Of a stretch of DNA of 46,565 bases, positions 23,962 through 39,581 are shown in pieces. The position numbers were made by a program, and so were the translations under genes. This DNA comes from Candidatus Thorarchaeota archaeon (GTDB lineage Archaea > Asgardarchaeota > Thorarchaeia > Thorarchaeales > Thorarchaeaceae), in the NCBI GenBank assembly GCA_019057475.1, contig DXJO01000054.1:1-46565 (forward strand). The letters are read 5' to 3'. Each line of letters opens with the position of its first letter. The stretch's first letter is position 1. The notes below the pieces were generated by a model. The model saw only the letters and a list, made by a program, of their open reading frames with translations. It had not been told where the DNA came from and ran no database searches.

Positions 23962-25089
23962 GTGATGGAGTCATGTAGATTGTCGTACGATCGTTGCGTT
24001 AGGTGCGGGTCTTGTATAATACTCTGTCCAGTCTTCGACGCGATTGGAGAAGAGCAGTACTCGCCAAGAGGTAGGACTTACCTTCTACAGGTCATGGACC
24101 TGATTGAGGAAGATAAGGAACTGGGCAAGGAGTTCCGAAGGCTTCTGTTTCAGTGCACGTTTTGCGGAAGATGCTCAGAGATCTGCGCGTCTGATGTAGA
24201 CCTTCTCAAGGTGTGGCACGAGCAGCGAGGCAAGGCAGTAAGTGAGGCACCTGAGGAATTTGGGTATCTAGATGCACTTGGGAAGTCCTTGGCGAATATG
24301 ATGAATATCTATGGACTCGATCCTGAAGATAGAGCGGAATTCTGGCTTGACGAGCTTGAAGATGAAATCCCGGGTATCGCAGACAGGGTCTATGAGGAAG
24401 GAAAGACAGCCGACACCATGGTGTTCCTCGGTTGTCTGATGTCTTTCAGAGCCAGTCAGATGGATGTCTTGCGCTCGTTGTTCCTCACTCTAGAGAAGCT
24501 CGACGTGGACTACCTCGTGATGGGTGCTGAGGAGTTTTGCTGTGGTCACCCACTTCACCTGATGGGCGACGATGACGGTGCAACCAAGCTTAGAGAACAC
24601 AACAAGGGAGTAATGGAGAGCGCAAAGGCAAAGCGCGTGATCACTTGTTGCCCCGGATGCCTGATTCAGATATCAACAAACCACAACCTGAAGGAAGACA
24701 TTGAAGTCCTACATCATACTCAGCTGTTCGACCGGTTGCTGGAAACCATCCCCAAATACAAACAGGAAGAGGAATTCTCATATCATGACCCATGTGAACT
24801 CCACAGAATCTGCAATGTGAAGACTGAACCACGGTCCTTGCTGAATAAAATGGGCGTGGAATTTGAGGAGATGGACTTGAGTTGTTGTGGGGGTGGAGGG
24901 CTGTTGAGAATGACAGACCCAGACCTCAGTGACGAAATAATCCAGATACGCGCTCAAAAGGAGAAGCTTGGTGACAGGTTAGTATTGACCTGCTGTCCCT
25001 CGTGCCGCGAACAGTTTCTAGGAGCTAATCTCCGTACTAGAGACATTGTAGAGATTCTTGCGGACGCCCTTGAAGGAGGAGAAAAATAG
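23962..25089 (+). CDS. GlcF/GlpC/HdrD-like Fe-S protein with two [4Fe-4S] motifs and two CCG domains
   Basis: CVRCGSCIILCP, SPRGR, CTFCGRCSEIC, EFCCG, TCCPGC, YHDPC, SCCGGGG, TCCPSC. Confidence 0.92.
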   Translation: MMESCRLSYDRCVRCGSCIILCPVFDAIGEEQYSPRGRTYLLQVMDLIEEDKELGKEFRRLLFQCTFCGRCSEICASDVDLLKVWHEQRGKAVSEAPEEFGYLDALGKSLANMMNIYGLDPEDRAEFWLDELEDEIPGIADRVYEEGKTADTMVFLGCLMSFRASQMDVLRSLFLTLEKLDVDYLVMGAEEFCCGHPLHLMGDDDGATKLREHNKGVMESAKAKRVITCCPGCLIQISTNHNLKEDIEVLHHTQLFDRLLETIPKYKQEEEFSYHDPCELHRICNVKTEPRSLLNKMGVEFEEMDLSCCGGGGLLRMTDPDLSDEIIQIRAQKEKLGDRLVLTCCPSCREQFLGANLRTRDIVEILADALEGGEK

Positions 25090-25090
25090 A

Positions 25091-26431
25091 ATGAAGCTCA
25101 GAGACATAGCCATTGGCGCAAATGCATCAATCTACCTGCGCATGGATTTCAAGAAGATCAAGGGTGTGTTCTATCCCCGGACGGAGCAGGAAATCATAGA
25201 CGCAATAGCAACGGCACACGATGGTGGATACAGCGTGACCCCGAAGGGTGGAGGCTCAGGTCTCTCAGGGGCATGCACTGGTGGCAACAGAGAACGAGTT
25301 ATGATCAGCACCCTCCGGATGAGGGAAGTACTCACAGTCTCCAAGGACCAAGGCTATGCAGATGTTCAGCCCGGCGCCACGCCCGACGAGATTAATGCCC
25401 TTATTGAGCCAATAAGAATGAAATTCTGGGTAGCACCCAGCAGTAGGGACATTGCTTCAGCAGCTGGAATCCTCAGCACGGATGGCGGTGGGAACGATAC
25501 TTGGGTCAATGGCACCATGAGGGATAACACAATCAGAGCGAAGATGGTCCTGTATGATGGAAGACGCCTGACTGTGGATTGGAATGGTGTCACTTCAGAT
25601 GATTCAGAACTTGAGGCAGAACTCAATAAGAAAGGTATGACTATCAGCGATGTCGCAAGTGCTCACGGCACGCTTGGATTCATCACCGAGCTTCGAGTGA
25701 AGATTAAGCCATTTCCCAGCGAGAAACTCGTGGGAGGACTGGCGAAGTTCGAGGACTGCAATGCAATGGGTCGGGCATTGAGTGAGCTTATCAAGAGGAA
25801 AAGCCCGATAAGGTATGGCGAAACCGTCGCGGCAGCTCACGAGGACATAAGAGAAGGCCTCGACCTGCCACTCCTAACTCTGGAATTCCCCGAGGACTTT
25901 GCATCAGAATTGAAGGACATATTGGACTATTCTGATCTGGATTCCGAAGGGCTTGCCAAAATGAAGGATGTCAGAATTAAGCTGCCAAAGAGGAATCCAA
26001 ATGAAGGGTTGCAGATTGCCCTGTTTGAGGGATTTGGATACCACGGCGATAACCTATTGAAAATGCAAGATGCCATCGATGAGATTAACAGCCTCTTGAT
26101 AGGACATGGTCTCGCACTATTCGCTAGGTATGGCCATGCACCAAGCAAGTGGTATCTCGGCGACAACAGTCCAGCGTACGGTGTCATACTCCACTCTCGT
26201 GAGATAAAGCCAGAGGACAAGACCAGCCGCGAAATGTTCGATACGATAACCGATATCGTCGCGAAATGCAATGAGCTAGGCATAACGCCGAAGCCCGAGC
26301 ATAAGTGGCCGTTTAGTGATGAGGAGAAGAAGACCCGCATCAAAGAGCTTCGGGAGGTTATGGGAACTGGGTTCAATGATTTCATCCTCGACCCCAATGG
26401 AGCCTATGACACACTGAGCTCTCTGGTCTAA
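25091..26431 (+). CDS. FAD-binding (PCMH-type) oxidoreductase, GlcD/D-lactate dehydrogenase-like
   Basis: PKGGGSGLSG, VQPG, HGTLGFIT and C-terminal PEHK. ATG at 25091 directly follows the Fe-S gene. Confidence 0.85.
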   Translation: MKLRDIAIGANASIYLRMDFKKIKGVFYPRTEQEIIDAIATAHDGGYSVTPKGGGSGLSGACTGGNRERVMISTLRMREVLTVSKDQGYADVQPGATPDEINALIEPIRMKFWVAPSSRDIASAAGILSTDGGGNDTWVNGTMRDNTIRAKMVLYDGRRLTVDWNGVTSDDSELEAELNKKGMTISDVASAHGTLGFITELRVKIKPFPSEKLVGGLAKFEDCNAMGRALSELIKRKSPIRYGETVAAAHEDIREGLDLPLLTLEFPEDFASELKDILDYSDLDSEGLAKMKDVRIKLPKRNPNEGLQIALFEGFGYHGDNLLKMQDAIDEINSLLIGHGLALFARYGHAPSKWYLGDNSPAYGVILHSREIKPEDKTSREMFDTITDIVAKCNELGITPKPEHKWPFSDEEKKTRIKELREVMGTGFNDFILDPNGAYDTLSSLV

Positions 26432-26506
26432 AGCGATTCGAAGGTGAAAAATAGTTTCGGTCATCTCCGAGGGGTGCTTTTAAGGGTTCTTCGAAATCAA
26501 GCTTTG

Positions 26507-27652
26507 ATGAGAATGGTCAGACCTCAACGAATCAGCCCAAAGGGCCTCTTTGACCCCTACTTTATTCCTGATCGCTTGCTCCATCGGGAACGCGAGATGC
26601 GGATGATTGACAGCGTTTATCGCGACAGTTACGAAGATGACTACGGTATCAACTGCCTTGTTCATGGGATAACAGGAGTGGGAATGACTGTCTTCTCAAG
26701 GTATTTTCTCACCAAGATTATCCCGGAGCAGTTTGACTCGTACACAATCTACGTGGACGCCAAGCACAAGGAGGTCCTTGAGATTGTTTCAGAGCTCAAC
26801 GATAAGATTCACAGGTTGTCAAACAAGCCCATCACCGTAGCTTTTGACTTGGATAGACTCTGGATGCAGTTCAAACGTACTGCGGCTACATCCTCGAGAA
26901 GAGGAGTTTTCGTCATAGATAACATAGATGAGAATAACGAGGAGGTCTACACCAAGGTTGCCATGCTATCCAAGGAGATCAAGGCAAGTACGATTGGCAT
27001 TCTAAACAGCCATGATTACAGAATGCTCACGAAGGCACCGGCGACACAGATGGCGTACGACTTTGAGGTGCCCTTGGATACCTATACCCAATCACAGCTT
27101 TATGACATAGTGAGGTTGCGTGTGGAAGACACGTTTCCTTTGGGGCTCACCGACGAGATTATCAGGTACATAGCCGACTTGGTCTGTGAGTTTCAGGCAT
27201 CGACGCCCAGGACATCGATTGAGGCACTCAAAGCACTCTGGCCGCTGGCTCAGAGAGGACAGGAGATAACCTCAGATATTGTCAGATCTGCAACATCCAG
27301 AATCACGACGCTCGGTCGGGATAACGACTACATGGACCTGATAGACACAATAAGCATGAACGATTTCATGACCCTGCTTGTGCTTGAGGCATTGAGCGAG
27401 CATCTAATGCGCTACAAGACTGAAACGTACATTGATAGACAGACACTCAACGAGCTTGTCTTAATCAAGTGCGAAGAGCTAGGAGTCAAGCATTCAGTAG
27501 ACGACATTGACAAGAGCCTGCAGACACTCATCTTCCAGAGCGTTGTCTTTGAATCAGGTTACACTCGAGACCTGCTTTATCTGTTGGTGCCACCCGAAAT
27601 ACTCTATGACACTGCATTGAATCTAAGACGTGAGCTGGCTAGCAGAAAATAG
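26507..27652 (+). CDS. Divergent Cdc6/Orc1 paralog with degenerate ATPase motifs
   Basis: FDPYFIPDRLLHREREM, Walker A GITGVGMT, Walker B VIDNID, PLDTYTQSQLYDIVRLR and a C-terminal winged helix. Confidence 0.85.
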   Translation: MRMVRPQRISPKGLFDPYFIPDRLLHREREMRMIDSVYRDSYEDDYGINCLVHGITGVGMTVFSRYFLTKIIPEQFDSYTIYVDAKHKEVLEIVSELNDKIHRLSNKPITVAFDLDRLWMQFKRTAATSSRRGVFVIDNIDENNEEVYTKVAMLSKEIKASTIGILNSHDYRMLTKAPATQMAYDFEVPLDTYTQSQLYDIVRLRVEDTFPLGLTDEIIRYIADLVCEFQASTPRTSIEALKALWPLAQRGQEITSDIVRSATSRITTLGRDNDYMDLIDTISMNDFMTLLVLEALSEHLMRYKTETYIDRQTLNELVLIKCEELGVKHSVDDIDKSLQTLIFQSVVFESGYTRDLLYLLVPPEILYDTALNLRRELASRK

Positions 27653-27722
27653 CCTACTTTGGCGTAGGTTTGAAGGAAGTAGTCAAGTGTGGGTCGGAAG
27701 CTCTGCCCGCACAAGCACGTCT

Positions 27723-28166
27723 TTATTCGCCCTTTAGTGCCTTCTTTTCCTTGACCTCTATCTTGGCCCAGGCTTCGAGTCCGTCAGCACCCTGCAGTGC
27801 GCCGACCTCTACATCCCAATTGTTGGCTTCAATGAGAGCAATCCAGCCTTTTCCGTATGGATCATCATTGAGCAGCCCAGGATTGGCCTTAAGGTCTTCA
27901 TTCGTTTCAATAATCGTGCCCGTTACAGGGCTCTTGACTGCCCCGGTCCACTTGCCGCTTTCTAGAGTACCAACGCTGCGGCCAGCCTTGACCTCCTTGC
28001 CTGGAGGTCTCAGGCGAATGAATTTGACCTTTCCTGCAGCATAAGAGCCGAGGGAAGTCATTCCAAGACGTACCTTTCCATTCTCCTTCTTAATCCAGAG
28101 TTGGTCGGTTCCACCTCCAAGGTAGAAAAGATCTTCTGGAAAATCAAAGCCATCGACTGTAACCAT
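27723..28166 (-). CDS. gcvH: Glycine cleavage H / lipoate-binding protein
   Basis: PEDLFY, VRLGMT, lipoyl-Lys motif TLESGKW, SPVTG, NDDPYGKGWI. GGTGA SD. Confidence 0.88.
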   Translation of the reverse strand: MVTVDGFDFPEDLFYLGGGTDQLWIKKENGKVRLGMTSLGSYAAGKVKFIRLRPPGKEVKAGRSVGTLESGKWTGAVKSPVTGTIIETNEDLKANPGLLNDDPYGKGWIALIEANNWDVEVGALQGADGLEAWAKIEVKEKKALKGE

Positions 28167-28584: not shown

Positions 28585-29355
28585 ATGAAAGGGACAGAAT
28601 CTAGTTTCAGATTGGGATTCTCCACTGCAGACCAAGTCAAACGCAGCGTCATACCCACAGGAATTGTTGCCCTTGACAAATTACTAGGAGGGGGATTAGA
28701 AACCAGCCTGATGTATCTGTTCTATGGAGACCGCTGCCTCAATGACGACCTACTTCGGATTGCTGTTCAAATGCAACTTCCTGCGGAACGCAAGGGAATG
28801 AATAGCCCGACCATAATCATTGACAGTGCCAACATAATCAAGATAGACAAGCTCACTGACTATTCCTTTGAGTTTGAACTTGAGCCCGAGGAAGTCATGG
28901 AACGAATCTACATCTCGCGCGCATTCAATTCGAGTCAGACGTACGCTCTCGTGATGGAGCAACTGCCATCGTTTTTTGAGCGAGTGCCCGCGCGGTTGTT
29001 GATTATTGCAGGCCTGCCGGACCTGTACATCTCCGAGAGGATGATGACTGGAGAGGGCCTCCAACAGCTCACCCACATGGCGACCAAGTTGATGACTCTC
29101 ACATTGAATAGGGAAATAGTCACTCTGGTTTCTGCACCGTCATCTCAGAAGAACCGCGAACTACCAGCAGGGGGAAAGGCCCTCTCAAGCTGCGCGCAGG
29201 TACACATTCACGTCTCCGAGTCAGAGTCCCACATCAAGTATACCCTGGCAAAGCATCCACAGTATCCTATCAGGCGAACCTCACGAGTCAAGCCTTCGGA
29301 CTTCGGAACGACATTGCCGCTCTCACACTTCCTAGATGGATCTGACGGAGAATAG
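28585..29355 (+). CDS. RadA/Rad51-paralog-like protein lacking an intact Walker A and the N-terminal HhH domain
   Basis: IPTGIVALDKLLGGGLET, IAVQMQLP, IYISRAFNSSQ, GGKALS. The P-loop position reads YGDRCLND. Confidence 0.8.
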   Translation: MKGTESSFRLGFSTADQVKRSVIPTGIVALDKLLGGGLETSLMYLFYGDRCLNDDLLRIAVQMQLPAERKGMNSPTIIIDSANIIKIDKLTDYSFEFELEPEEVMERIYISRAFNSSQTYALVMEQLPSFFERVPARLLIIAGLPDLYISERMMTGEGLQQLTHMATKLMTLTLNREIVTLVSAPSSQKNRELPAGGKALSSCAQVHIHVSESESHIKYTLAKHPQYPIRRTSRVKPSDFGTTLPLSHFLDGSDGE

Positions 29356-29468: not shown

Positions 29469-32400
29469 CTATTCCTCTTGGCCGCCGAGGCTCCTAATCA
29501 GATCCTCAACAAGGTCTCGTGGAAGGCTTTTGGCCTGCTCTAGTATGGTGTCAATCTCGTGGGGCGGTACGCCACGTTGCTCGAGGTCCTTCTTCAGTTC
29601 CTTGATCTCATAGTCGCTGAGTCGTTCAGATGATGGGGCGGCTTCCACTTTGGCTTCTCGCTTAATGGTGGTGACAACATCCTCAGCTTCCGCATCCTCA
29701 GGTGGTAGTATCACGGTTTCGGACGGCAATACCGTGGGCTCGGCACTTGGCGCCTTGAGCACTTCCACTCCACGAATTTTGTGCTGGGCCTCCTCTGCCA
29801 CCAGTTCTTTAACCTCGTCGACGGACTTGCCCTCACGCCGCGCCACTCGAATCGCCTCCTGATGGATGACCTCCTTGATGAAGGCTGCCTGCTCACTGTC
29901 TAGCATCTTTGAGATATCTGCCTTGAAATCATCAAGCTCCTGTGTGTTCAAGTGTGTGAGTATTGAGAGCTGAACCAGCAGTTCTCCAAGCTCTGGAATA
30001 TCTACTATAATCGCGACTTCAGGCATCTGTGATGCTTGTCGAGTCATTTCCAATTCGATGAATGTATCATTGAAGAGTTCTGCAACAAGTTCCTGTCGAC
30101 TCCGGACATCCTTCACAGGTTTGGGCATCTTGCCTTTCCGTAGTGCCTTGATTTGACCGTTTATCTTGCGAAGCTGCTTTGGCATCTTCAAAACCTTGAC
30201 ATACAGAATAACGCCCATGATCAGTACGGCGGCAAAAGGCAACACATAGGTTACAGTCGTTGCCACCAGTAGATCGTTGTCATTTGGATTGACTTCATAT
30301 GATATAGCGATTGTAACCCGCGACTCGTAGTTCTCCTTGAACATCGTGATAATGAAGAACCCACCAGTTTCGTCAATCTCCTTGCCAAAGATGGTAACAA
30401 CATAGCGACCGTCTATAGTGGGATGTGACTTAATGTCAATGGAGATGGCTGCTGTGTCATTTCGGTTGTAGTCCCAGGAGGCCCCCATGACACCTGACGA
30501 GCCGTGTGTTTCCCAAGCATCAGTGAAGAGAAGGTCGAAGGTCACATAACCCTGGTTCACAACCTGAATCGCTCGGATATCGTCAACCATTTCGAGTTGA
30601 GTGGGAATATCGACGATCCTTATCCGAATAATGATGCTTGATTCCGTTCGGTTGCCATAGGATAAGGTGATGGCAAAGATGTATGGATCATCACTCACAT
30701 CGTACATACTTGTATCGAAGCTGAATGTGTAGTTGCCTTCAAGGAGGGCCACGAGCGAGATGTTACGGGGTTCCAGAAACTTCGCGTGAGTGAATTTCGC
30801 GTTCTCAATAGTGGCACCACTGATACCACCAACATACGGTGTGTCGTTTGTTGTGACTCCTGCCGTGCTGTAGAAAAGAGTAATTCCGATAGTGTCAGAC
30901 CAGGGCACTTGGAGGTTTATTGTGCTGCCTTCAATCTGGTTGACTGAAGGTGCAAAGATGTCAATCTCGGTTTCGATGGCGGTAATCCTCAGATTGAAGG
31001 TCCCGGATCGGGGTGCGAAATTATCCTTGTCAAAGGAGATTGTTATTGGATAATACTCTCTGCTTGGGGTCATTAGTGTGGTGTTGATGAATATGCTGTA
31101 GTCTCCGTTGCCGACATATTTGGCCATATCTGTTCCGCCAGCCCACGAATAGGTGGCCGCCATGTCGATTCCGTAGCTCTCATTGTCCACACCAGTGTCG
31201 TGGTACAAATCCCATAGAGTAAAGTTGAACCAGCCGCTCCACCCCCATATCTTGTCAACGGTAAGCGGGTTGTCGAGACTAGTGGGAATATCAAGTATTC
31301 TTAGGAGTGTCGTGTTGCTTGATCTTTGATACTCTAGGTTTCTCGGTGTAGCAGTGATTGTGAAACTGTGGACAGTTGCATCATACTTGGTTGTGTTGAA
31401 GTAGAAGTAGAAGTGTCCGAGGAGTGGGAATGATGAGTTCTCTTCGAAAGTCCCTTCCTCAGTCCCGAGCCGCCAGGTGACCGTGGAGTTCCACTGGTGG
31501 TAATCGTCAGTGCCATTTAAGTCGGGTGCAATCACGTACACGCCGACCTTAATGATCTGTGACCAGTTGAAGAACGTATCCACGTAGGATTCAGAACGTT
31601 CGTCGAATATGACTTGAGTTTCCGTGGCTATGATGGCAATAGTGAACGAGATAGACCCAGCCTGGTGATTCTGTTTCAGCGCTGTGACCGTTACAATATA
31701 CGACTCTGCGGCTTCAGTTAAGTCAGTGTCCAATGTGTACTGGTAGATGCCTCCACCCAAATCAGTGAGGGTCGCATTCTCGGGGTTTACGAATGACCAA
31801 AAGGCGTAGACTGTGGCACCTTCCACCGGAATGCCATTCACGGAATCTATGATTGAAACGTTCAGATTGGCCGCTTCCCCTCTCGGGAGAGAGAAAACGA
31901 AGATGCCACCGATTGGAGTCACAGCCATCGGAACAGGCAAAATACTGAGAGTGACCTGGGTCGATACTGTGATGTAGTTCGGCTTCTGAGCAGTTATGAA
32001 CACAACTACTGTTGTCGCATTGACATACGAGGTATCAAGAGTGACTGTGTAGTATCCGTCGGTGCCAGTCGGTAACAAATTCCCGGGCGAGCCTGCCCAA
32101 GTGTAGCTCACCACTGCGTCTGTGAGGGGCAAATTGCGAAGCGTGTCATTATAGAAAATCTCCACTGTTGTACTGTTGCCCCAGTAGAGCTCGATTGCAG
32201 CTTCCGTGGGTACAATGTCAGTAGTTATTGCCTTGAGGATAAGATCCAAACTGAGGGGGGTGACGTCGTAGTTAAGCACTGCGGCTTCTATGAGGAGCTG
32301 CTCAACACCGTAGTTGAGAACTAGTGTGCTAAGATCAATCCTGTAGCTTCCATTCAACAGATCTGTAATGCCGAAGCTGTCAGGCCATGTAATGTTTAAT

Positions 32401-35400
32401 GCTGCACCAGGTAGTGAAGCATCCCCGGCGTCGATATCCACCAAGGTCACCATCACAACGGCCGAGTCGCCTGCATAGATTGCTGGAGGGACGGTTGCGT
32501 CAAGGAGTCCGTATCTGTTCCTTAACTGGAATGATACTTGGATCTGCAGGGACTGGTAGGGATAGAAATCTATCTCGATTATGAGAGTTTTAATCCCCTT
32601 CTCACCCGCATCATGAGTATCCATTGTGACGTTGTACACGCCTGCGCCTACAGATTCCCAGACCCAAATCGATGGAATCGACCCGTTCTTGTATCTGACG
32701 GAGATGTTTGCTCCAGCACCGTTGATTGGAGATGCATGGTCGAGATCAATAAACGTGATGACAATCGAAACATTATCGTTGTATGGTACCGTCGCAGGTG
32801 TCGGCGGAGCATTGGTGAGTGAAATCTGGATAAGTCGGACTCCGCCAATCATCTTCAAGCCAGTGATATCCTGATAGTAAGGAGACTGAGAAGGATTCCA
32901 AGTAACGTCCAGAATGAAATTGAAGGCACTTATTCCTCCTTGGAATTCGGTATCAAGTACTGCCGTATCAACGAGGATTGTGTAGTTCCCAGCATCAGCA
33001 CCAGTTCCAGCAAATACCCAATAATCTACATCCTTGATGAGTCCTGGCACCTCCACACAGTCAAACTGAATTTCCGCATTTCCTATCCCTACGCCTGTTG
33101 CCTCATCCACAAAGTCAAAGCTAAGAGTCATGTTATCATTCATGGGTGTGACAAGTACTTGCCCCAGACTGACAGAACCTATCCGATTTGCGGTGGTCAC
33201 CTTGATGGAAGTCTGGTCGTCGGAGTAGTACGGGGGTAATGAGTCGTTCCAATCTACGAACACCGTAACGTTATGATCATCAACCAAGCCGGAGCTCAGG
33301 AATGTGGAGTTTATGCTTATCACATAGAGGTTCCCACCCTGATCAATGAATGAGTACAAACTGGGCGCCAAGACCTGCGTATCGTTATAGATGACGATAT
33401 CGGCCTTGGTAATTGCAACTCTCCATTCTGTACCCACATCAATAAATGAGAACGTGAATGTCACGTTGTCTAGAAACCTCGTCTGCGAAGGAGGCACCTC
33501 TATCTCTACATTCGTTTCCCTGCGAACAACCCTTAGACTAAGACTCATTGTGGCGTTGTTGTGGTATGGCGTACCCAACGTCCAGTTGGCTTTCACCACG
33601 ATCTGCGTAATGGCAATTCCATCAAGGGCTGTTGTTTCAACTGTGATTAGATACGAGCCGGAGCCCACCTCGGAAACTTGGTAATCAACCCCAAACGTTA
33701 GGGGAGAACCGCCCTTGTACACAGTGAGATTACCATTCTCAATGCCATTCAAAGAATCTAGATCCTCATAGAAGAGTGTGAAACTTATGCTCTCATTATA
33801 CGGTGTAGACTGAGGAAGCTCACCTGTAACGTAGATAGTGGATGCTCTGTGGCGTAGCTCAAATGGAATGAAGACTTGGTTAGGTCTATAGAATGGCTTT
33901 TCATCAGCGTAGCTCATGTTTATCCAGAGCACGTAATTTCTGTTGACCTCAAGCACTGGGTAACTTTGCAGCGTAAGGAGATAGTACCCCTGAGAAGGTA
34001 TCCACTCACACGAGAAGATCCAGTCCGTTCCATTGAGTATGTCGAGAGACGCGTAACCACTGCCATTGCCTATGTTGGCGAATGTAATCAGGTCCTGGTA
34101 GTACACTATCACCTCAAATGAGAGGTTGTACGCAACTCGATAAACAGGCACAGAAGAGAGAATGGTTGCTCGTGGTCTAACATCGAAAGACCGTGTAGCA
34201 GTTACATTTGGCATGTAGAAGCGGGTAGTTGTAAGAGTCACATTCAAACTGTAAAGGCCTGGATTCTCATAGTGGGTAGTATTGAAATCAATCTCGTATT
34301 CGCCACCACCAAGCTCCGTGATTGTATAGTAGATGGCGGGGATTGATGTGAAGCCGTCGTAGAGCGCAACGTCTGCGCCAGTTACGCCCGTGGCGGCAGC
34401 CCCCGTGACATCGGTCCAAATGACTGAGAATGTGACATTGTCGCGGTACTGAGTGGGAGCCAGTGAGTACTCCAAGACTGTCTGCCTTTGGATTACAGTG
34501 ATGAATATCACACGCCCAGTTCTGTTTGCATAAAAGGGTACTCCCACCCAAGTTACATCCAATGTGAAAGACTTCTGTCCGAGAGGAGCATCGAATTGGC
34601 TTGTATTGAAGGATACTGTGAATATCCGGTATAGTGGATCATAAGTCATAGACATATTCGCAAGGTTCAGACTCACTATCATGGAGGAGCTGTTTTCGAT
34701 TGGCTCATTTCCTCCGCCCGTCACGTCATCGAAGGTGAAGGATAATGTCGCATTCTCACCATAGGATGTCGGAGTTGGCGGTATGATTGACACAAGCGTG
34801 TTTCTTGCCAGAACTCCAACGGAGATGACGTCGGAGCGGTTGGTGTAGAACGGAGTCACGCCCTCAGTCCAGTTGATGAAAACGTTCATGTAGAAGCGGT
34901 CAATCTTTCCGAAGATTGTGTTGTTAAACCCAATGGAGTAGTTCCCAGGTTGACCCGACTGATCTATCTCTTTGATGTCCACTTCAGACAGGTCGACAGA
35001 CACACCTTGGAAGCTGACGTAGATATGCACATCCCCGGTGGAGTTGTCGATGCCAATACCGGCCAAATCGCTGTAGAAGAACGTGTAGTTCATGACCTCG
35101 GAGTATGGCGTTGGCTCGGATGCGAGCATGAGAGTGAGCCTGGAGTCCACACCAACTATGTTGACTGTGGCAGTGAGCCACTTAGATTGATACTTATCAC
35201 CAATGCCAGTCCAGCTGAATGTCACATTGAGGGTCTGCAGGCCCAAGCCGAGTTGATTCGCATTGATTTGTACGATATAGTATCCTTTGCCTTGCGGACC
35301 ATCTTCTAGACTTGAGATAACCAGACCTGATGTGTTCTCAACCGTGTGGGTAATACTGCTCTTGGGGTCAATCCCCACGTTGTTGTCTAGGTCACCATAA

Positions 35401-38400
35401 TAGACAGAGATGTTAATGACTCCGTTGTAGCTGGTGGGCGCCACTGCACTGACGAGTCTGAAATCGGTGTTGTGACGCCGAATAGTCACAGTGATGTTGA
35501 AGATACCAAGCTGATAGTTCTCGCCCTTCGAGAAGTTGAAGGTGACAATGCGATTTTGCTCCAATGTATCAGTATCAGTAGTGTTGAAGATAATCCTATA
35601 CCTCTGTTCCCCCTGGATCCACTTAACGGTTGGCAGGTGCGGCCAGTTGAGGAGTTCGACTGTCGCGTCTGCGATTGGTACATCGTTATCCGTATCCCAG
35701 TACGTGACATAGAAGACGGGGTCATTTCCAACAGGAATGCCCAGTGCGCCCACAGTGGGGAGGGCATAGGCGTATGCATACCTAACTGTTAGAGTGAAGG
35801 TCAGAGTCTTGCTCTCATACTGGGGAGCAGAAGCTGTCAGATTGAACTCGTAATTACCCTTTGCTCGACCGCTGAGATCAAGCGTCACTTCGTACATACC
35901 GTTGCCAAGGTTGGTGATATCATAGATTGGGATTCCAGTAGAGGTGATTGTGGCAGTTGTGATGCCCTGCAATCGATCCACGTCAGTGTAGTTCAGAGAG
36001 ATAATCACGTCCGTTTCGTATGGCGTTGTCACCTGTGGATAACTCGGTGATGAGAGGTAACTCCGCGCAGCACGATAGATGAATGATATGACAAGCGTGT
36101 CCAGTGTATGGTTCGCGCTGTTCGGATCAACTGTGACCGTTATCGTGTAGTCATCATCTGTCAGATGAGAATGGTCGATTGTGAGGCGATATCGTCCATT
36201 GCCAAGGGCGGCGATTGCTATCGGGAATGTGTATGTGGCATTCCTTGCAGAGAACTCACCCACTGCGAGTCCGAGGATGGGATTGCCATCATTTGAGTTT
36301 CCTGGTTCGCTCACATTCACTCGAAGGATAATTACGAAGTCGTCACCTGATGGGAATATCAGGTCTGTGGGCTCATGATGCAGGTAAGTTGCAAGACTAC
36401 GGATGGTGACATCGAAATCGTAAAGGGCAGGCGCTGCATAGTCTGACCCGGACATCACAACCGTAATGGTGACTGCAGTGGTTCCTACATCCCAATTGTC
36501 CGTGGTCAGTATCACGTCGTAGCTAGTAGCAGAGTCAGGCTGCTCCCCATAGGCAGATGAGAATGTGAATGAGGCAACATCGGTAATATCCACAAGGGTT
36601 CCGGTATCAAGATCAGTCAGAACAACTGTTAACGGTGTGTCGTTGCCATAGGGGCGGGTCAAGACACCCGTCACGCTGACTGACGTATAGTGCTCTCGGA
36701 TGTCAATGTTGAACGTGTATTGTGCTGGCGCATAATAGTCAGAGCTCGCCAAGGTGATAGACAGGTTTACCGCATAGGAGCCAATACTCCATGAACTTGT
36801 ACTCAGAGTCACGTCATAGTCCAAAGGCGAATTATCTGTCTGAGTGCCCTCACTGGATGTGAATATGAAAGATGCAACGTCACTGACTGTGACTTGTTCA
36901 CCAGTGTCTAGATCAATGAAGTTAACGGTCACTTGAGTGTCTTCACCAAATGGAACAATGAGATCTCCCGACACGGATGCTGTCGTGTAATGTGGTCTCA
37001 ACGTGAAGATGATGTCGACACTTGCCATCTGAACGTAATCGCTGGGTTTTGATGCGTTGAAAGTGTACAAATGGTTGCCCCTGTTCAGAGCCGCAGTTGG
37101 GATTGAAATGTTGTATTCTCCACCGCCTTCCCAGACAACGGTCACCGGAGATCCATCATCAAGCGTTATTGTAGCGCCTGTTATCGGAGAACCGGTGTAG
37201 ATGTTCGTGTAGACTAGAGTGGCAGTGAAATCGAATCCAACTGGAGTTGAGGATACTGAGTGGTAGGTGAGGACAGTAGGATGATACAAATCGAGATCGA
37301 AGAATGTGGAGGAATCGGCATAGTAGGGATGAGAGGATTGGATGTTGATTCGCCACCTCGTTGCCGTGCTCAAATCTGTAGTATTCACTTCCTTACCGTA
37401 TCGACCTCCTCCGAGATCATCTAACTGGAGTTGCGTAGGAACACCTGATACCGTCCAGTTCATAGTGATGGTAGCGCCTGTTACCCCGCCAGAGGTTTCA
37501 TCATCGGTAAGGTTGACTGCAATGAACAGCCCTTCTCCAATAACCCTGGTTGATACACCATCGCCGATAGCATCTCCAGGAGAATCAAAAGTAAGGCTTG
37601 AACCATGTTGAACGGTGAATTCGCGCTCGTATATGCCGACTCGGTAGTTGACCGAGCTTCCAGAGTCGTTGTAGAGAGCTCGTGCAGTCCAAAGTCCAGC
37701 GGCCGCAGATGAGTCCATGACCTTCTTGAAGGTATGGTCGGGCGAGGGCCTCTCAGACTCACTGCCGACATTGTAGAACGTACTGCTGAATCGTTGGTTT
37801 GAATATGCAGTAGGAATCCACCCGAGCTGATTCGTCCTGTCAACATTGGATATGCGTACTTCGTCGATGCTGCCATCAAACCAACCGCCATACATGGCCA
37901 TGGCGCCCAGCCAAGGCAACTGACTATCCGTTTCTCCACCACCGATTCCCCAGTGTGCAGAGTATGTAAGATTCGAATAGACTGCAGCACCTGTCGTAGT
38001 GATATTCATATCAGGTTGCCCGTTTATGTAGATTTGATTATTGGAGGGGTTGCTTGCATCCATAGTGCAAACGAAGTAGTACCATTGCCCCGCGGTCCAG
38101 CTGGTCGTCTGAGTCCATATGTACTTGGTATTATCGTTATTCTCGACCTTGAACACAAAAGAACCAGGTGCAACGGGATCTCTCGTGTAGTCGCTACCCA
38201 CAAGAACAATGTGCATATCATCATCAGGCGAGAAGAACTTCGCCATTATCACCTGCGATGTTGCTGAAGAGGCACCGAAATTATTGTCTAGCCTGAACCA
38301 TCCCGAGATTGTGACATCACCGGTCGGATCAAGACCTTTATCCAATGTGACATTGATCATGTCGTCGGTGCCATCAAACCTTTGACCGTAGGAAAAGAGG

Positions 38401-39581
38401 GTGTTGACTTCATCATTGCCATCCTGGTTTCCATCGTAGTCACCCGAAGTTGAGTCATAGTGGGTTCCAGTTGTAGCTTCATCTGTTACAGTTTCATTAA
38501 GATGCCAGACAGCCAAGTAATCTTGAGTCCAAACCGCTTCCGTGTCTGTTATGGAATTAACGAGTGAGTTGCCGTAGTACATTGTGATGACAGTATCAAC
38601 TGAGGCGGATAGGTTCGTCTTGACCCACGCTGTGAGTCGCGCTCGTCCAAGAACTATGTCATAGTCCTGGTCAAACCGCTCAATCTCATGGGAAAGAATG
38701 TTGCTGCCAGATACGAAGATGATGTCTGCCCCGTCGCTCTGACAGCCCGTGTACAGGTCGTAGTCAAGGATGTCGATTAGAACGGGATAGTCAGTGAGGT
38801 CTCCGGACACCCTCGTGTGTTGAACAGTTATGTTCTTGCGATATCTGAATGACCGCAGCAAGTGAGAAGAAGCCCCCGAGGTGGAGTTTGTTGCGGTGTC
38901 CCAGGTGGAGTCGGTTGGATCAATAAGCTCGAATCTTGTCACCGCACCCGTAACCCAAGAGCTTGTAGTCTGAACCTTTAGCTCGTCGTCAACATCGAGT
39001 GTGGCTGAAGAGGACAGAGCTCCGTCACTTGGTCCCAATTGCAGGTCACGTAGATGATTCTCACCCATGAATTCGAATTTCCAAAGCCCATAGGAGTCAA
39101 TTGCGCTCGACTCTACTGTGATGAGCCCCCCTACATACCACCAGTCATCAGGGATAGTTTGGATTACATTCAAGGGGTTCGTCAACGAAACTGGAGTCCA
39201 TTCGTCAAGGGGATAGTCAACAGTGAAGCTCAGGGTTTCAACCTCAGGAGGAGGTGATACCAAGACATATGCAGTCCATGACACTGTGCTACCGTTTGTG
39301 ACTGTGAAGGAGGATCCCGAGGTCATGTCTTCAGAGTAAGTCGTTGTTGAGTCGGTCCAGGATGAACTATTCGTGAAAGTGCCTGAGAAGGCGACATCTA
39401 ATGCAGCTCCATTCCCTGCGTATGTAGCCCCGTTGTCTGCGACAACACCCCAAACTAATGCAGACTCGGATGGTCCCAGAGTGGAAGCCATCGTGCCATC
39501 TCCAATTGGATTCGCTAGAAGTATTAAGAACATGCTAGCCATTAGTACCGTGATTGTGCCGCATTTCATCATCTGTATCAC
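29469..39581 (-). CDS. Giant (3370 aa) type-I membrane surface glycoprotein: signal peptide, DUF2341 + LamG-like domain, many Ig-like repeats, TM helix, ~240-aa cytoplasmic tail
   Basis: N-terminal hydrophobic signal. FRYRKNITV…DYPVLI…HEIERFD…ITMYYGN (DUF2341). AVWHLNE…TISGWF…GQWYYFV…FDGSIDEVRIS (LamG-like). Repeated beta-rich ~100-aa units with many NxS/T sequons. TM at about 30190-30260. Confidence 0.92.
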   Translation of the reverse strand: MIQMMKCGTITVLMASMFLILLANPIGDGTMASTLGPSESALVWGVVADNGATYAGNGAALDVAFSGTFTNSSSWTDSTTTYSEDMTSGSSFTVTNGSTVSWTAYVLVSPPPEVETLSFTVDYPLDEWTPVSLTNPLNVIQTIPDDWWYVGGLITVESSAIDSYGLWKFEFMGENHLRDLQLGPSDGALSSSATLDVDDELKVQTTSSWVTGAVTRFELIDPTDSTWDTATNSTSGASSHLLRSFRYRKNITVQHTRVSGDLTDYPVLIDILDYDLYTGCQSDGADIIFVSGSNILSHEIERFDQDYDIVLGRARLTAWVKTNLSASVDTVITMYYGNSLVNSITDTEAVWTQDYLAVWHLNETVTDEATTGTHYDSTSGDYDGNQDGNDEVNTLFSYGQRFDGTDDMINVTLDKGLDPTGDVTISGWFRLDNNFGASSATSQVIMAKFFSPDDDMHIVLVGSDYTRDPVAPGSFVFKVENNDNTKYIWTQTTSWTAGQWYYFVCTMDASNPSNNQIYINGQPDMNITTTGAAVYSNLTYSAHWGIGGGETDSQLPWLGAMAMYGGWFDGSIDEVRISNVDRTNQLGWIPTAYSNQRFSSTFYNVGSESERPSPDHTFKKVMDSSAAAGLWTARALYNDSGSSVNYRVGIYEREFTVQHGSSLTFDSPGDAIGDGVSTRVIGEGLFIAVNLTDDETSGGVTGATITMNWTVSGVPTQLQLDDLGGGRYGKEVNTTDLSTATRWRINIQSSHPYYADSSTFFDLDLYHPTVLTYHSVSSTPVGFDFTATLVYTNIYTGSPITGATITLDDGSPVTVVWEGGGEYNISIPTAALNRGNHLYTFNASKPSDYVQMASVDIIFTLRPHYTTASVSGDLIVPFGEDTQVTVNFIDLDTGEQVTVSDVASFIFTSSEGTQTDNSPLDYDVTLSTSSWSIGSYAVNLSITLASSDYYAPAQYTFNIDIREHYTSVSVTGVLTRPYGNDTPLTVVLTDLDTGTLVDITDVASFTFSSAYGEQPDSATSYDVILTTDNWDVGTTAVTITVVMSGSDYAAPALYDFDVTIRSLATYLHHEPTDLIFPSGDDFVIILRVNVSEPGNSNDGNPILGLAVGEFSARNATYTFPIAIAALGNGRYRLTIDHSHLTDDDYTITVTVDPNSANHTLDTLVISFIYRAARSYLSSPSYPQVTTPYETDVIISLNYTDVDRLQGITTATITSTGIPIYDITNLGNGMYEVTLDLSGRAKGNYEFNLTASAPQYESKTLTFTLTVRYAYAYALPTVGALGIPVGNDPVFYVTYWDTDNDVPIADATVELLNWPHLPTVKWIQGEQRYRIIFNTTDTDTLEQNRIVTFNFSKGENYQLGIFNITVTIRRHNTDFRLVSAVAPTSYNGVINISVYYGDLDNNVGIDPKSSITHTVENTSGLVISSLEDGPQGKGYYIVQINANQLGLGLQTLNVTFSWTGIGDKYQSKWLTATVNIVGVDSRLTLMLASEPTPYSEVMNYTFFYSDLAGIGIDNSTGDVHIYVSFQGVSVDLSEVDIKEIDQSGQPGNYSIGFNNTIFGKIDRFYMNVFINWTEGVTPFYTNRSDVISVGVLARNTLVSIIPPTPTSYGENATLSFTFDDVTGGGNEPIENSSSMIVSLNLANMSMTYDPLYRIFTVSFNTSQFDAPLGQKSFTLDVTWVGVPFYANRTGRVIFITVIQRQTVLEYSLAPTQYRDNVTFSVIWTDVTGAAATGVTGADVALYDGFTSIPAIYYTITELGGGEYEIDFNTTHYENPGLYSLNVTLTTTRFYMPNVTATRSFDVRPRATILSSVPVYRVAYNLSFEVIVYYQDLITFANIGNGSGYASLDILNGTDWIFSCEWIPSQGYYLLTLQSYPVLEVNRNYVLWINMSYADEKPFYRPNQVFIPFELRHRASTIYVTGELPQSTPYNESISFTLFYEDLDSLNGIENGNLTVYKGGSPLTFGVDYQVSEVGSGSYLITVETTALDGIAITQIVVKANWTLGTPYHNNATMSLSLRVVRRETNVEIEVPPSQTRFLDNVTFTFSFIDVGTEWRVAITKADIVIYNDTQVLAPSLYSFIDQGGNLYVISINSTFLSSGLVDDHNVTVFVDWNDSLPPYYSDDQTSIKVTTANRIGSVSLGQVLVTPMNDNMTLSFDFVDEATGVGIGNAEIQFDCVEVPGLIKDVDYWVFAGTGADAGNYTILVDTAVLDTEFQGGISAFNFILDVTWNPSQSPYYQDITGLKMIGGVRLIQISLTNAPPTPATVPYNDNVSIVITFIDLDHASPINGAGANISVRYKNGSIPSIWVWESVGAGVYNVTMDTHDAGEKGIKTLIIEIDFYPYQSLQIQVSFQLRNRYGLLDATVPPAIYAGDSAVVMVTLVDIDAGDASLPGAALNITWPDSFGITDLLNGSYRIDLSTLVLNYGVEQLLIEAAVLNYDVTPLSLDLILKAITTDIVPTEAAIELYWGNSTTVEIFYNDTLRNLPLTDAVVSYTWAGSPGNLLPTGTDGYYTVTLDTSYVNATTVVVFITAQKPNYITVSTQVTLSILPVPMAVTPIGGIFVFSLPRGEAANLNVSIIDSVNGIPVEGATVYAFWSFVNPENATLTDLGGGIYQYTLDTDLTEAAESYIVTVTALKQNHQAGSISFTIAIIATETQVIFDERSESYVDTFFNWSQIIKVGVYVIAPDLNGTDDYHQWNSTVTWRLGTEEGTFEENSSFPLLGHFYFYFNTTKYDATVHSFTITATPRNLEYQRSSNTTLLRILDIPTSLDNPLTVDKIWGWSGWFNFTLWDLYHDTGVDNESYGIDMAATYSWAGGTDMAKYVGNGDYSIFINTTLMTPSREYYPITISFDKDNFAPRSGTFNLRITAIETEIDIFAPSVNQIEGSTINLQVPWSDTIGITLFYSTAGVTTNDTPYVGGISGATIENAKFTHAKFLEPRNISLVALLEGNYTFSFDTSMYDVSDDPYIFAITLSYGNRTESSIIIRIRIVDIPTQLEMVDDIRAIQVVNQGYVTFDLLFTDAWETHGSSGVMGASWDYNRNDTAAISIDIKSHPTIDGRYVVTIFGKEIDETGGFFIITMFKENYESRVTIAISYEVNPNDNDLLVATTVTYVLPFAAVLIMGVILYVKVLKMPKQLRKINGQIKALRKGKMPKPVKDVRSRQELVAELFNDTFIELEMTRQASQMPEVAIIVDIPELGELLVQLSILTHLNTQELDDFKADISKMLDSEQAAFIKEVIHQEAIRVARREGKSVDEVKELVAEEAQHKIRGVEVLKAPSAEPTVLPSETVILPPEDAEAEDVVTTIKREAKVEAAPSSERLSDYEIKELKKDLEQRGVPPHEIDTILEQAKSLPRDLVEDLIRSLGGQEE

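What the first reader, a model, noticed from the sequence alone, without database searches (positions are those of the whole stretch)
26507..27652. ATPase-degenerate Cdc6/Orc1 paralog resembling a structural ORC-like subunit
Seen: the ORF is intact and full-length (AAA+ plus winged helix), but the Walker A Lys is Met (GITGVGMT), Walker B DE is DN (VIDNID), and the usual SR arginine-finger segment before the P-x-x-Y motif is replaced (APATQMAYDFE). There is no sizeable adjacent intergenic space for an origin, and the gene lies 75 nt after a metabolic pair. Established: eukaryotic ORC contains catalytically inactive Orc1/Cdc6 paralogs. Inference: a pseudo-ATPase acting in a heteromeric initiator complex, as an inhibitor, or as a DNA-binding regulator.
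Basis: partly seen in the sequence, partly recalled or inferred. Interest (0 to 1): 0.7.

Follow-up and report, generated by a model that had tools for sequence, protein, structure and literature searches.

The report
Dead Orc1/Cdc6 paralogue of Thorarchaeota
This Asgard archaeon keeps, under strong selection, a copy of the replication initiator Orc1/Cdc6 that has lost its ATP-handling and DNA-contact residues. Its promoter shares a conserved control box with a second Orc gene and a TFB gene, and the box resembles the DNA-damage-response element of Sulfolobus, so the protein is probably a non-enzymatic part of a stress circuit and not an origin binder.

Summary
The ORF at 26507-27652 is a full-length Orc1/Cdc6-fold protein with Walker A GITGVGMT, Walker B VIDNID and no arginine finger.

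This is not decay:
- None of 113 Thorarchaeota relatives (44-96% identity) has the Walker A Lys or the Walker B Glu.
- dN/dS is 0.03-0.065, and all three domains are constrained.
- The winged helix has also lost the basic DNA-contact residues (RR helix, GRxGR wing).

The protein belongs to an Asgard-wide divergent clade that splits from canonical Orc1/Cdc6 with SH-aLRT 100. It shows no special affinity to eukaryotic ORC2-5.

There is no origin-like space next to the gene. Instead, a 20-nt box (AATAsTTTCGGnCAyCTC) sits just upstream of the TATA box in every orthologue promoter examined. The same box is conserved upstream of the class-II Orc1/Cdc6 paralogue and of a divergent TFB gene across 16 genera. 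It matches AATAnTTTCGG plus CTC of the S. islandicus Orc1-2 damage-response element.

Best reading: a pseudo-ATPase effector or modulator in an Orc1-2-type regulon that acts through protein contacts. The regulon link is inferred from sequence only. Partners and induction are untested.

The scan had flagged the same family in other genomes.

The parts
26449..26468 (+). Conserved 20-nt operator box (AAATAGTTTCGGTCATCTCC), with the ANTTTC core at 26453-26458. It resembles the Sulfolobus damage-response element (DDRE).
   Evidence: Conserved in all 17 Thorarchaeota orthologue promoters, while the flanking upstream sequence is unalignable. The same box lies upstream of the class-II Orc gene (23 genomes) and of a TFB-like gene (23 of 24 genomes). 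It gives the two top PWM hits in the genome plus a third at the TFB-like gene. The S. islandicus consensus AATAGTTTCRGWDTACTCWS is quoted in PMC6061795.
26478..26483 (+). TATA-like element (TTTTAA; TTTATATA in most orthologues), about 26 nt before the ATG, which implies a leaderless or near-leaderless mRNA.
26507..27652 (+). CDS of the 381-aa Orc1/Cdc6-fold pseudo-ATPase (P0001).
26666..26689 (+). Degenerate Walker A / P-loop GITGVGMT (Lys to Met, codon 26684-26686).
   Evidence: Across 113 relatives the Lys position reads M, R, N, S or A and never K, while the rest of the P-loop is invariant.
26912..26929 (+). Degenerate Walker B VIDNID (catalytic Glu to Asn, codon 26921-26923).
   Evidence: All relatives read DN or DG. 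The Glu is present in only 1 of 41 non-Thor clade members.
27032..27067 (+). Segment replacing the arginine-finger box (KAPATQMAYDFE; no Arg).
27197..27229 (+). Altered sensor-2 region (ASTPRTSIEAL in place of HGDARRALDLL).
27365..27649 (+). Winged-helix domain (residues 287-381) that lacks the basic DNA contacts. Its net charge is about -4 against +3 in canonical Orc1/Cdc6.
   Evidence: dN/dS of this domain is 0.03.
23962..26431 (+). Upstream neighbours: a CCG/4Fe-4S protein and an FAD_binding_4 protein (GlcF/GlcD-like). Synteny is conserved only within the family.
27723..28166 (-). Convergent downstream neighbour, glycine-cleavage H protein.

Best explanation
The gene encodes a non-catalytic Orc1/Cdc6 derivative. 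It keeps the AAA+/lid/winged-helix fold but can no longer hydrolyse ATP, probably cannot bind it normally, and has lost the canonical DNA-contact residues. It therefore most likely works through protein-protein contacts.

It is one of three genes in Thorarchaeota that carry the same operator just upstream of their promoters. The other two are the class-II Orc1/Cdc6 paralogue (Orc1-2-like) and a divergent TFB. The operator closely resembles the element through which Sulfolobus Orc1-2 switches on its DNA-damage regulon, which includes orc1-2 itself and tfb3.

The inferred mechanism is as follows. The Orc1-2-like regulator binds the box and co-induces the dead paralogue. The dead paralogue then acts as an effector or modulator, most plausibly in one of two ways: as a decoy that ties up Orc1-1 or MCM to hold back initiation, or as a feedback partner of Orc1-2.

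Shown here: motif loss, purifying selection, fold, clade membership and the shared conserved box. Inferred: who binds the box, inducibility and the protein partner.
For: - Motif loss is fixed in all 113 relatives. Omega is 0.03-0.065 overall and in each domain.
- The confident Orc1/Cdc6 fold is closest to 1fnn_A, TM 0.74.
- The WH RR helix and GRxGR wing are replaced and the domain is acidic.
- The divergent clade is separated from canonical Orc1/Cdc6 by SH-aLRT 100 under LG+C20.
- The 20-nt box is conserved in 17/17 orthologue promoters, at the class-II Orc gene in 23 genomes of 16 genera, and at the TFB-like gene in 23/24 genomes. At the TFB-like gene, 21 of the 23 non-own loci score at least 20 bits (as does the own locus, 23.9 bits), while control loci score at most 17.9.
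- Only three sites in the 3.34-Mb genome reach 20 bits.
- The box shares AATAnTTTCGG and CTC, at the same offset and a similar distance from the ATG, with the S. islandicus DDRE. Orc1-2 footprints that element, and it is needed for induction of tfb3, ups and ced (PMC6061795; PMC12490963).
- The best genome-wide match to the Sulfolobus consensus (1 mismatch; none at 1 mismatch or fewer in Markov controls) lies upstream of the DNA-repair gene nre.
Against: - There are no expression, binding or interaction data.
- Scored with the Sulfolobus consensus alone, the box of this gene has 4 mismatches, which is background frequency. The case rests on conservation and on sharing among three promoters.
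- Orthology of the C54 paralogue to Sulfolobus Orc1-2 rests only on similarity (1fnn 195 bits, 1w5s 105 bits, NF001623 over its cut-off), not on a tree that includes Sulfolobus.
- The nre box is kept in only two genera.
- Outside Thorarchaeota the box is patchy.
- The invariant P-loop glycines, Thr61, Asp138 and sensor-1 Asn, and Lys-to-Arg in some orthologues, leave room for residual nucleotide binding.
Confidence: 0.55

Rival explanations
1. Structural subunit of a heteromeric, ORC-like origin complex. It would assemble with Orc1-1 and/or Orc1-2 at origins as a permanent non-catalytic subunit, like eukaryotic Orc2/Orc3.
For: The fold is retained and strongly constrained. The genome has exactly two canonical paralogues that could be partners. 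The N-terminal LFDPYxxP...R..E motif shared with Orc1/Cdc6 is conserved.
Against: There is no sequence or structural affinity to Orc2-5 beyond that to Orc1/Cdc6. The gene is not next to an origin-like region, and the gaps in other genomes hold inserted genes. The WH DNA contacts are lost. The promoter is wired like the Orc1-2-like and TFB genes, and the box is not found at orc1-1 (best PWM score 2.6).
Confidence: 0.15
2. A DNA-binding transcription regulator in its own right, which binds the conserved box (autoregulation) through a remodelled WH/ISM surface.
For: Sulfolobus Orc1-2 shows that Orc1/Cdc6 proteins can be transcription factors (PMC6061795). The box is conserved upstream of this gene in all orthologues.
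Against: The two arginine pairs that Orc1-2 needs for DNA binding (PMC12490963; PMC9738581) have no counterparts. The WH is acidic and the ISM loop reads FDLD. The class-II paralogue, which keeps a basic wing, is the more obvious binder.
Confidence: 0.1
3. Adaptor in a Roadblock/small-GTPase signalling module, unrelated to replication or damage.
For: In four other Asgard families the clade member is divergently adjacent to orthologous Roadblock/LC7 genes, and in a fifth to an Arf-like GTPase. The AAA+/WH architecture is shared with STAND NTPases, which appear among the lower Foldseek hits.
Against: None of the 13 Roadblock genes of this genome lies on the window's contig. The best Thor match to those Roadblock genes is unlinked. 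Thor synteny is with metabolic genes only.
Confidence: 0.1
4. A decaying or neutrally evolving pseudogene, or an assembly or sequencing error.
For: Several catalytic motifs are altered at once.
Against: The ORF is intact in 113 relatives from many samples. dN/dS is 0.03-0.065 with dS 0.24-0.40. It is 75% identical across genera where its neighbours are 57-65%. The promoter is conserved.
Confidence: 0.01

Closest known systems
Archaeal Orc1/Cdc6 initiators (TIGR02928; PDB 1fnn P. aerophilum Cdc6, 2qby_A S. solfataricus Orc1-1, 2v1u A. pernix ORC1)
   Same: Same three-domain fold (AAA+ base with ISM, lid, C-terminal winged helix). Conserved N-terminal motif, P-loop glycines and sensor-1 Asn. These are the best sequence and structure matches.
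   Different: Scores 72 bits against a family cut-off of 181. Lacks the Walker A Lys, Walker B Glu, arginine finger, GDAR sensor 2, the 3-4 residue insertion after Walker B, the RR recognition helix and the GRxGR wing. Not next to an origin.
Sulfolobales Orc1-2 and its DDRE regulon (PMC6061795, PMC9738581, PMC12490963)
   Same: The promoter carries a box sharing AATAnTTTCGG...CTC with the 20-bp DDRE consensus, at a comparable distance from the ATG. As in Sulfolobus, the box is also upstream of an Orc1/Cdc6 paralogue that is not the Orc1-1 type and of a TFB paralogue.
   Different: This protein would be a target of the regulon, not the regulator, and no dead Orc is described in the Sulfolobus regulon. 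The ups and ced systems were not looked for here. The 3' half of the box differs (CAyCTC against DTACTC). Binding and induction are untested.
Eukaryotic non-catalytic ORC subunits (Orc2, Orc3; ATP-binding but non-hydrolysing Orc4, Orc5)
   Same: Orc1/Cdc6-derived AAA+/WH proteins with degenerate ATPase sites kept for structural roles. Within the Asgard clade there is a comparable gradient: Walker A is kept but the Glu is lost in most lineages, and both are lost in Thorarchaeota.
   Different: No specific sequence or fold affinity. The clade profile scores Orc5 at 33 bits and Orc4 at 20 bits, with no Orc2 or Orc3 hit, against 90-92 bits for archaeal Orc1/Cdc6. Foldseek ranks Orc4 below Orc1. 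Complex formation is unknown.

Membership tests
Archaeal Orc1/Cdc6 replication initiators | AAA+ base + lid + C-terminal winged-helix fold | tested here: met
   AF2 model pLDDT 92.6. Foldseek top hits are 2qby_A, 1fnn_A (TM 0.74), 1w5t and 2v1u.
Archaeal Orc1/Cdc6 replication initiators | Scores above the curated family threshold (TIGR02928, 181.3 bits) | tested here: not met
   72.3 bits. The two canonical paralogues of the genome score 418 and 293 bits.
Archaeal Orc1/Cdc6 replication initiators | Functional ATPase site: Walker A GK[ST], Walker B DE, arginine finger, sensor-2 GDAR | tested here: not met
   GITGVGMT, VIDNID, no Arg in KAPATQMAYDFE, and STPR in place of GDAR. The same holds in all 113 relatives.
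Archaeal Orc1/Cdc6 replication initiators | Basic DNA-contact residues in the WH (RR in the recognition helix, GRxGR wing) | tested here: not met
   Replaced by V-DDID and ESGYTRD. WH net charge is about -4 against +3.
Archaeal Orc1/Cdc6 replication initiators | Gene adjacent to an origin (AT-rich intergenic region with ORB repeats) | tested here: not met
   75-nt and 70-nt flanking gaps. Larger gaps in other genomes hold inserted genes.
Eukaryotic ORC2-5-type subunits | Closer in sequence or structure to Orc2-5 than to Orc1/Cdc6 | tested here: not met
   A tree with eukaryotic sequences could not be built, because no eukaryotic sequences were available by reference.
Eukaryotic ORC2-5-type subunits | Stable subunit of a hetero-oligomeric origin complex | not testable with these tools
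   No multimer prediction or interaction data available.
Orc1-2/DDRE regulon (as a target gene) | DDRE (ANTTTC within an AATAGTTTCRG... context) in the promoter, within about 100 nt of the ATG | tested here: met
   AGTTTC lies 54 to 49 nt upstream of the ATG. 16 of 20 positions match the consensus.
Orc1-2/DDRE regulon (as a target gene) | Element conserved in orthologues and shared with other regulon genes (orc1-2, a tfb paralogue) | tested here: met
   17/17, 23/23 and 23/24 promoters. Only 3 sites reach 20 bits in the genome.
Orc1-2/DDRE regulon (as a target gene) | Orc1-2 binding to the element and induction by DNA damage | not testable with these tools
   Needs EMSA or footprinting and expression data.
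Asgard divergent Orc1/Cdc6-like clade (defined here) | Falls inside the clade split from canonical Orc1/Cdc6, and shares the loss of Walker B Glu, of the post-Walker-B insertion and of the basic wing, plus the x-P-x motif in place of GDAR | tested here: met
   FastTree SH 100 and IQ-TREE LG+C20 SH-aLRT 100. Motif table.

The most novel reading that the evidence does not exclude
Asgard archaea share with Thermoproteota an ancient damage or stress circuit driven by Orc1-2 and the DDRE. In this circuit an Orc1/Cdc6-derived pseudo-ATPase family, found across several Asgard lineages, is the effector that restrains replication initiation by sequestering Orc1-1 or MCM. That would be an archaeal forerunner of checkpoint control of origin licensing, and an independent example of how non-catalytic ORC-type subunits arise.
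Probability: 0.2. Interest if true: 0.85.

Novelty: new variant of a known kind. Interest (0 to 1): 0.65.

Why it matters
Eukaryotic ORC is built from Orc1/Cdc6 paralogues, several of which are catalytically dead, and how such subunits arise is an open question. This report documents a strongly constrained dead Orc1/Cdc6 in the archaeal lineage closest to eukaryotes. It also shows a gradient of degeneration across Asgard families.

Independently, the conserved operator shared by this gene, the class-II Orc paralogue and a TFB paralogue suggests that the Orc1-2 damage-response logic, so far studied experimentally in Sulfolobales in the papers read here, extends to Asgard archaea.

Both ideas can be tested directly with recombinant proteins, using ATP binding, EMSA on three short promoter boxes and pull-downs. 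I found no description of this family, or of an Asgard DDRE, in the searchable literature.

Tried and rejected
- **Origin next to the gene: rejected.** The flanks are 75 and 70 nt. The 0.5-2 kb gaps seen in five other Thor loci contain extra ORFs, not a conserved intergenic region.
- **Conserved operon partners: rejected.** The metabolic neighbours are syntenic only within the family. Eleven loci from other Asgard families share none of them.
- **A broad regulon for the full 20-nt box: not found.** Only three sites stand above background in this genome: 24 hits at 13 bits or more against about 29 expected. The nre box is confined to two genera.
- **The box at orc1-1: absent**.
- **Defence-system role: no meaningful PADLOC hit**.
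- **Mobile-element origin: unlikely.** G+C is the same as in the surroundings and the chromosomal synteny is conserved.
- **Could not be done:** A tree with eukaryotic ORC1-5 was not possible because no eukaryotic sequences were available by reference. PMC4724246 (the MCM recruitment motif paper) is not held, so that motif could not be checked.
- **Rooting of the divergent clade was not attempted.** With three groups and no outgroup, the tree cannot show whether the clade derives from Orc1-1 or Orc1-2. The only hint is that its best equivalog-level match, NF001623, is the model that the class-II paralogue passes.

Full report
**1. Observation**

The ORF at 26507-27652 (+) gives 381 residues without a stop. 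HMMER alignment to S. solfataricus Orc1-1 and A. pernix ORC1 places them on GLTGTGKT, VLDEID and the DPRVKSSL arginine-finger box. It also places STPR on the GDAR of sensor 2.

The protein is a distant family member. It scores 72 bits against TIGR02928 (cut-off 181) and only sub-threshold on the Pfam AAA_22 and AAA_16 models. An AlphaFold2 model built on 94 sequences is confident (pLDDT 92.6, pTM 0.87) and shows the AAA+ base with a helical ISM insert, a lid and a C-terminal winged helix. Foldseek ranks archaeal Orc1/Cdc6 first (1fnn_A, TM 0.74), then eukaryotic Orc1, Orc4 and Cdc6.

**2. Organism and paralogues**

Named homologues are nearly all Candidatus Thorarchaeota. The window is contig 36 of a 3.34-Mb assembly that is 96% complete. 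The assembly also encodes two canonical paralogues with intact GKT, DE and GDAR motifs:
- One is on C18. It scores 343 bits to Sso Orc1-1 and passes the equivalog NF001625.
- The other is on C54. It scores 195 bits to 1fnn and 105 bits to A. pernix ORC2, and passes NF001623.

I call the second one class II or Orc1-2-like. Its orthology to Sulfolobus Orc1-2 was not tested with a tree.

**3. Not decay**

- Among 113 relatives (44-96% identity), none has the Walker A Lys (it reads M, R, N, S or A) and none has Walker B DE (it reads DN or DG).
- The P-loop is otherwise invariant. The former Lys position is the one variable site in it.
- Nei-Gojobori dN/dS against three close orthologues is 0.03-0.065 with dS 0.24-0.40. 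By domain it is 0.064 (AAA+), 0.024 (lid) and 0.030 (WH).
- Across genera the protein is 75% identical, while its neighbours are 57-65% identical.

**4. DNA contacts are lost too**

Canonical Orc1/Cdc6 proteins in the alignment carry LTxRR at the start of the recognition helix and GRxGRT[KR] in the wing. Here, and throughout the divergent clade, these read V-DDID and ESGYTRD. The net charge of the WH is about -4 against +3. In S. islandicus Orc1-2 the corresponding arginine pairs are required for DNA binding (PMC12490963; PMC9738581). Canonical origin or operator binding by this protein is therefore unlikely.

**5. A wider family**

An exhaustive HMMER search found, beyond the Thor clade, more than 40 cluster representatives at 20-31% identity. 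Those with names come almost all from other Asgard lineages: Lokiarchaeota, Helarchaeales, Asgardarchaeia, Ranarchaeia and Promethearchaeota. One cluster representative is labelled Candidatus Bathyarchaeota.

They form one side of a long branch against canonical Orc1/Cdc6, with FastTree SH 100 and IQ-TREE LG+C20 SH-aLRT 100. Shared derived traits are:
- no catalytic Glu (kept in 1 of 41);
- no insertion after Walker B;
- no arginine finger;
- an x-P-x motif in place of GDAR;
- no basic wing.

Walker A Lys is kept in 39 of 41 non-Thor members and lost in the Thor lineage.

A profile search of 301 Asgard genomes was bimodal. Strong matches occurred in about 64 of 77 genomes of the window's family and in eight other families. 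Sixteen families gave only cross-hits to canonical paralogues. The clade profile scores archaeal Orc1/Cdc6 at 90-92 bits, human Cdc6 at 54, Orc1 at 43, Orc5 at 33 and Orc4 at 20, with no Orc2 or Orc3 hit. I see no evidence of orthology to ORC2-5.

**6. Surroundings**

Within the family the gene order is conserved:
- malic enzyme;
- CCG/Fe-S protein;
- FAD-binding protein;
- this gene;
- GcvH (opposite strand);
- Zn-ribbon protein;
- RadA-like protein;
- a giant protein.

Where the upstream gap is larger in other genomes, it holds inserted genes. Eleven loci from other Asgard families share none of these neighbours. The neighbours therefore say nothing about function, and there is no origin here.

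**7. The promoter**

I aligned 110 nt upstream of 17 orthologues. The sequence is unalignable except for two elements:
- a block (A/G)AATA(C/G)TTTCGG-N-CAT(C/G)TC, which is 26449-26468 in the window;
- a TATA box 8-9 nt further on, about 26 nt before the ATG.

The same box lies upstream of the class-II Orc gene in the window's genome and in 23 genomes of 16 genera. A PWM built from these two promoter sets was scanned over the whole genome. The two training sites score 27-28 bits. One further site scores 23.8 bits and everything else is at background.

That third site is in the intergenic region before a divergent TFIIB homologue with an N-terminal Zn ribbon (NF001658 E 5e-15; PF00382 23.1 bits). 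This gene lies 4.4 kb from the class-II Orc gene and is followed by a T2SSE-type ATPase.

As an independent test, I fetched the TFB-like gene from 24 genomes. In 23 of them the best PWM site in the 4-kb locus lies on the sense strand 110-190 nt upstream of the gene. 21 of the 23 non-own loci reach 20 bits, while control loci score at most 17.9.

**8. Link to Sulfolobus**

Sun et al. (PMC6061795) derived the 20-bp consensus AATAGTTTCRGWDTACTCWS from NQO-induced promoters of S. islandicus. The element lies 23-55 bp before the ATG, is footprinted by Orc1-2 and is required for induction of tfb3, upsA, upsE and cedA1. The orc1-2 promoter carries it too (PMC12490963).

The Thor box shares AATAnTTTCGG and CTC at the same offset. 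The window's box matches 16 of 20 positions.

I also scanned the genome with the Sulfolobus consensus, which was not trained on Thor sequences:
- The best site (1 mismatch; none at 1 mismatch or fewer in Markov controls) lies 95 nt before an Nre DNA-repair gene.
- The second best (2 mismatches) is the TFB-like promoter.
- The boxes of this gene and of the class-II Orc gene have 4 mismatches, which for that consensus is background frequency.

The nre box is kept in only two genera. Outside Thorarchaeota, box-like elements precede clade members in four of ten loci, and precede the class-II Orc gene in one of five genomes. The link is therefore strong within the family and patchy beyond it.

**9. 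Interpretation**

I consider these points shown:
- a fixed, selected pseudo-ATPase with the Orc1/Cdc6 fold;
- loss of the canonical DNA contacts;
- membership of an Asgard-wide divergent clade;
- a conserved operator shared with the class-II Orc gene and a TFB paralogue.

I infer the rest. The class-II Orc binds the operator as Orc1-2 does in Sulfolobus, so the three genes are co-induced under damage or stress. The dead paralogue then acts through protein contacts, either as a decoy for Orc1-1 or MCM that holds back initiation, or as a feedback partner of the regulator. I put about 0.55 on this overall reading and no more than about 0.3 on any one partner. The rivals are listed with their tests.

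**10. Prior knowledge**

The Asgard replisome survey (PMC12680538) reports unresolved Cdc6-1 and Cdc6-2 expansions but no degenerate paralogue. The other searches found nothing on this family or on an Asgard DDRE.

The scan itself had flagged the same family in at least eight other genomes, and one follow-up reached a similar reading. What this report adds to that note is:
- the Asgard-wide clade;
- the per-domain selection analysis;
- the operator shared by three genes across 16 genera;
- the comparison with the 20-bp consensus;
- the limits of the regulon.

Noticed in passing
window 28585-29355 (+): A 256-aa RadA/Rad51-like protein (PF08423 E 4e-16; RadA equivalog 69 bits against a cut-off of 259) whose Walker A position reads LFYGDRCLND, with no GKT. 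This is a second apparently dead ATPase from a DNA-metabolism family, 1 kb from the dead Orc, and it is syntenic with it across the family (55-60% identity). No box is present in its promoter.
   Followed up: partly
G000 C54:35466-38513 (L060/L061): A DDRE-like box (23.8 bits; 2 mismatches to the Sulfolobus consensus) lies upstream of a divergent TFIIB homologue, which is followed by a T2SSE/VirB11-type ATPase with an N-terminal Cys-rich motif. The cluster lies 4-6 kb from the class-II Orc gene in most Thor genomes. It recalls the induction of tfb3 and upsE in Sulfolobus.
   Followed up: partly
G000 C19:39139 (-), gene 37785-39044 (L085): The best genome-wide match (1 mismatch) to the S. islandicus DDRE consensus lies 95 nt upstream of an Nre (PF04894/PF04895) DNA-repair gene. 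It is conserved only in two genera (5 of 23 loci).
   Followed up: yes
L028:4912-5589, L029:7203-7787, L030:7295-7990, L033:7411-8913; L031:5232-5897: In four other Asgard families the divergent Orc-like gene is divergently adjacent to mutually orthologous Roadblock/LC7 genes (33-42% identity). In a fifth family it is adjacent to an Arf-like small GTPase. Box-like elements lie in some of these shared intergenic regions. This is far more frequent than chance adjacency would give, but the sample is small and the test was not planned in advance.
   Followed up: partly
window 29469-39581 (-) and 39782-46513+ (-): Two giant ORFs (3370 aa, and more than 2243 aa running off the window). The only Pfam hit is one Laminin_G_3 domain. 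Relatives at 33-60% identity occupy the same position in other Thor genomes.
   Followed up: no
window 10882-12006 (-) and 12168-13880 (+): A divergently arranged pair: an RFC-like AAA+ protein (RFC lid and Rep_fac_C domains, all below or near threshold) and a 570-aa protein with Helicase_C_3. The pair is also syntenic in a genome of another family of the same order (L025).
   Followed up: no
L001 (G000 C18:10888-15003): The Orc1-1 gene lies between a 458-aa ORF that by eye looks like a calcineurin-type phosphoesterase or PolD small subunit (not tested) and a 404-aa ORF that by eye looks like a TnpB/IS200-605-type protein (not tested).
   Followed up: no
window 27670-28044 (+): A 124-aa ORF with no family match that overlaps the GcvH gene on the opposite strand. 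Its 'conservation' in relatives is explained by that overlap, so it is probably not a gene.
   Followed up: partly
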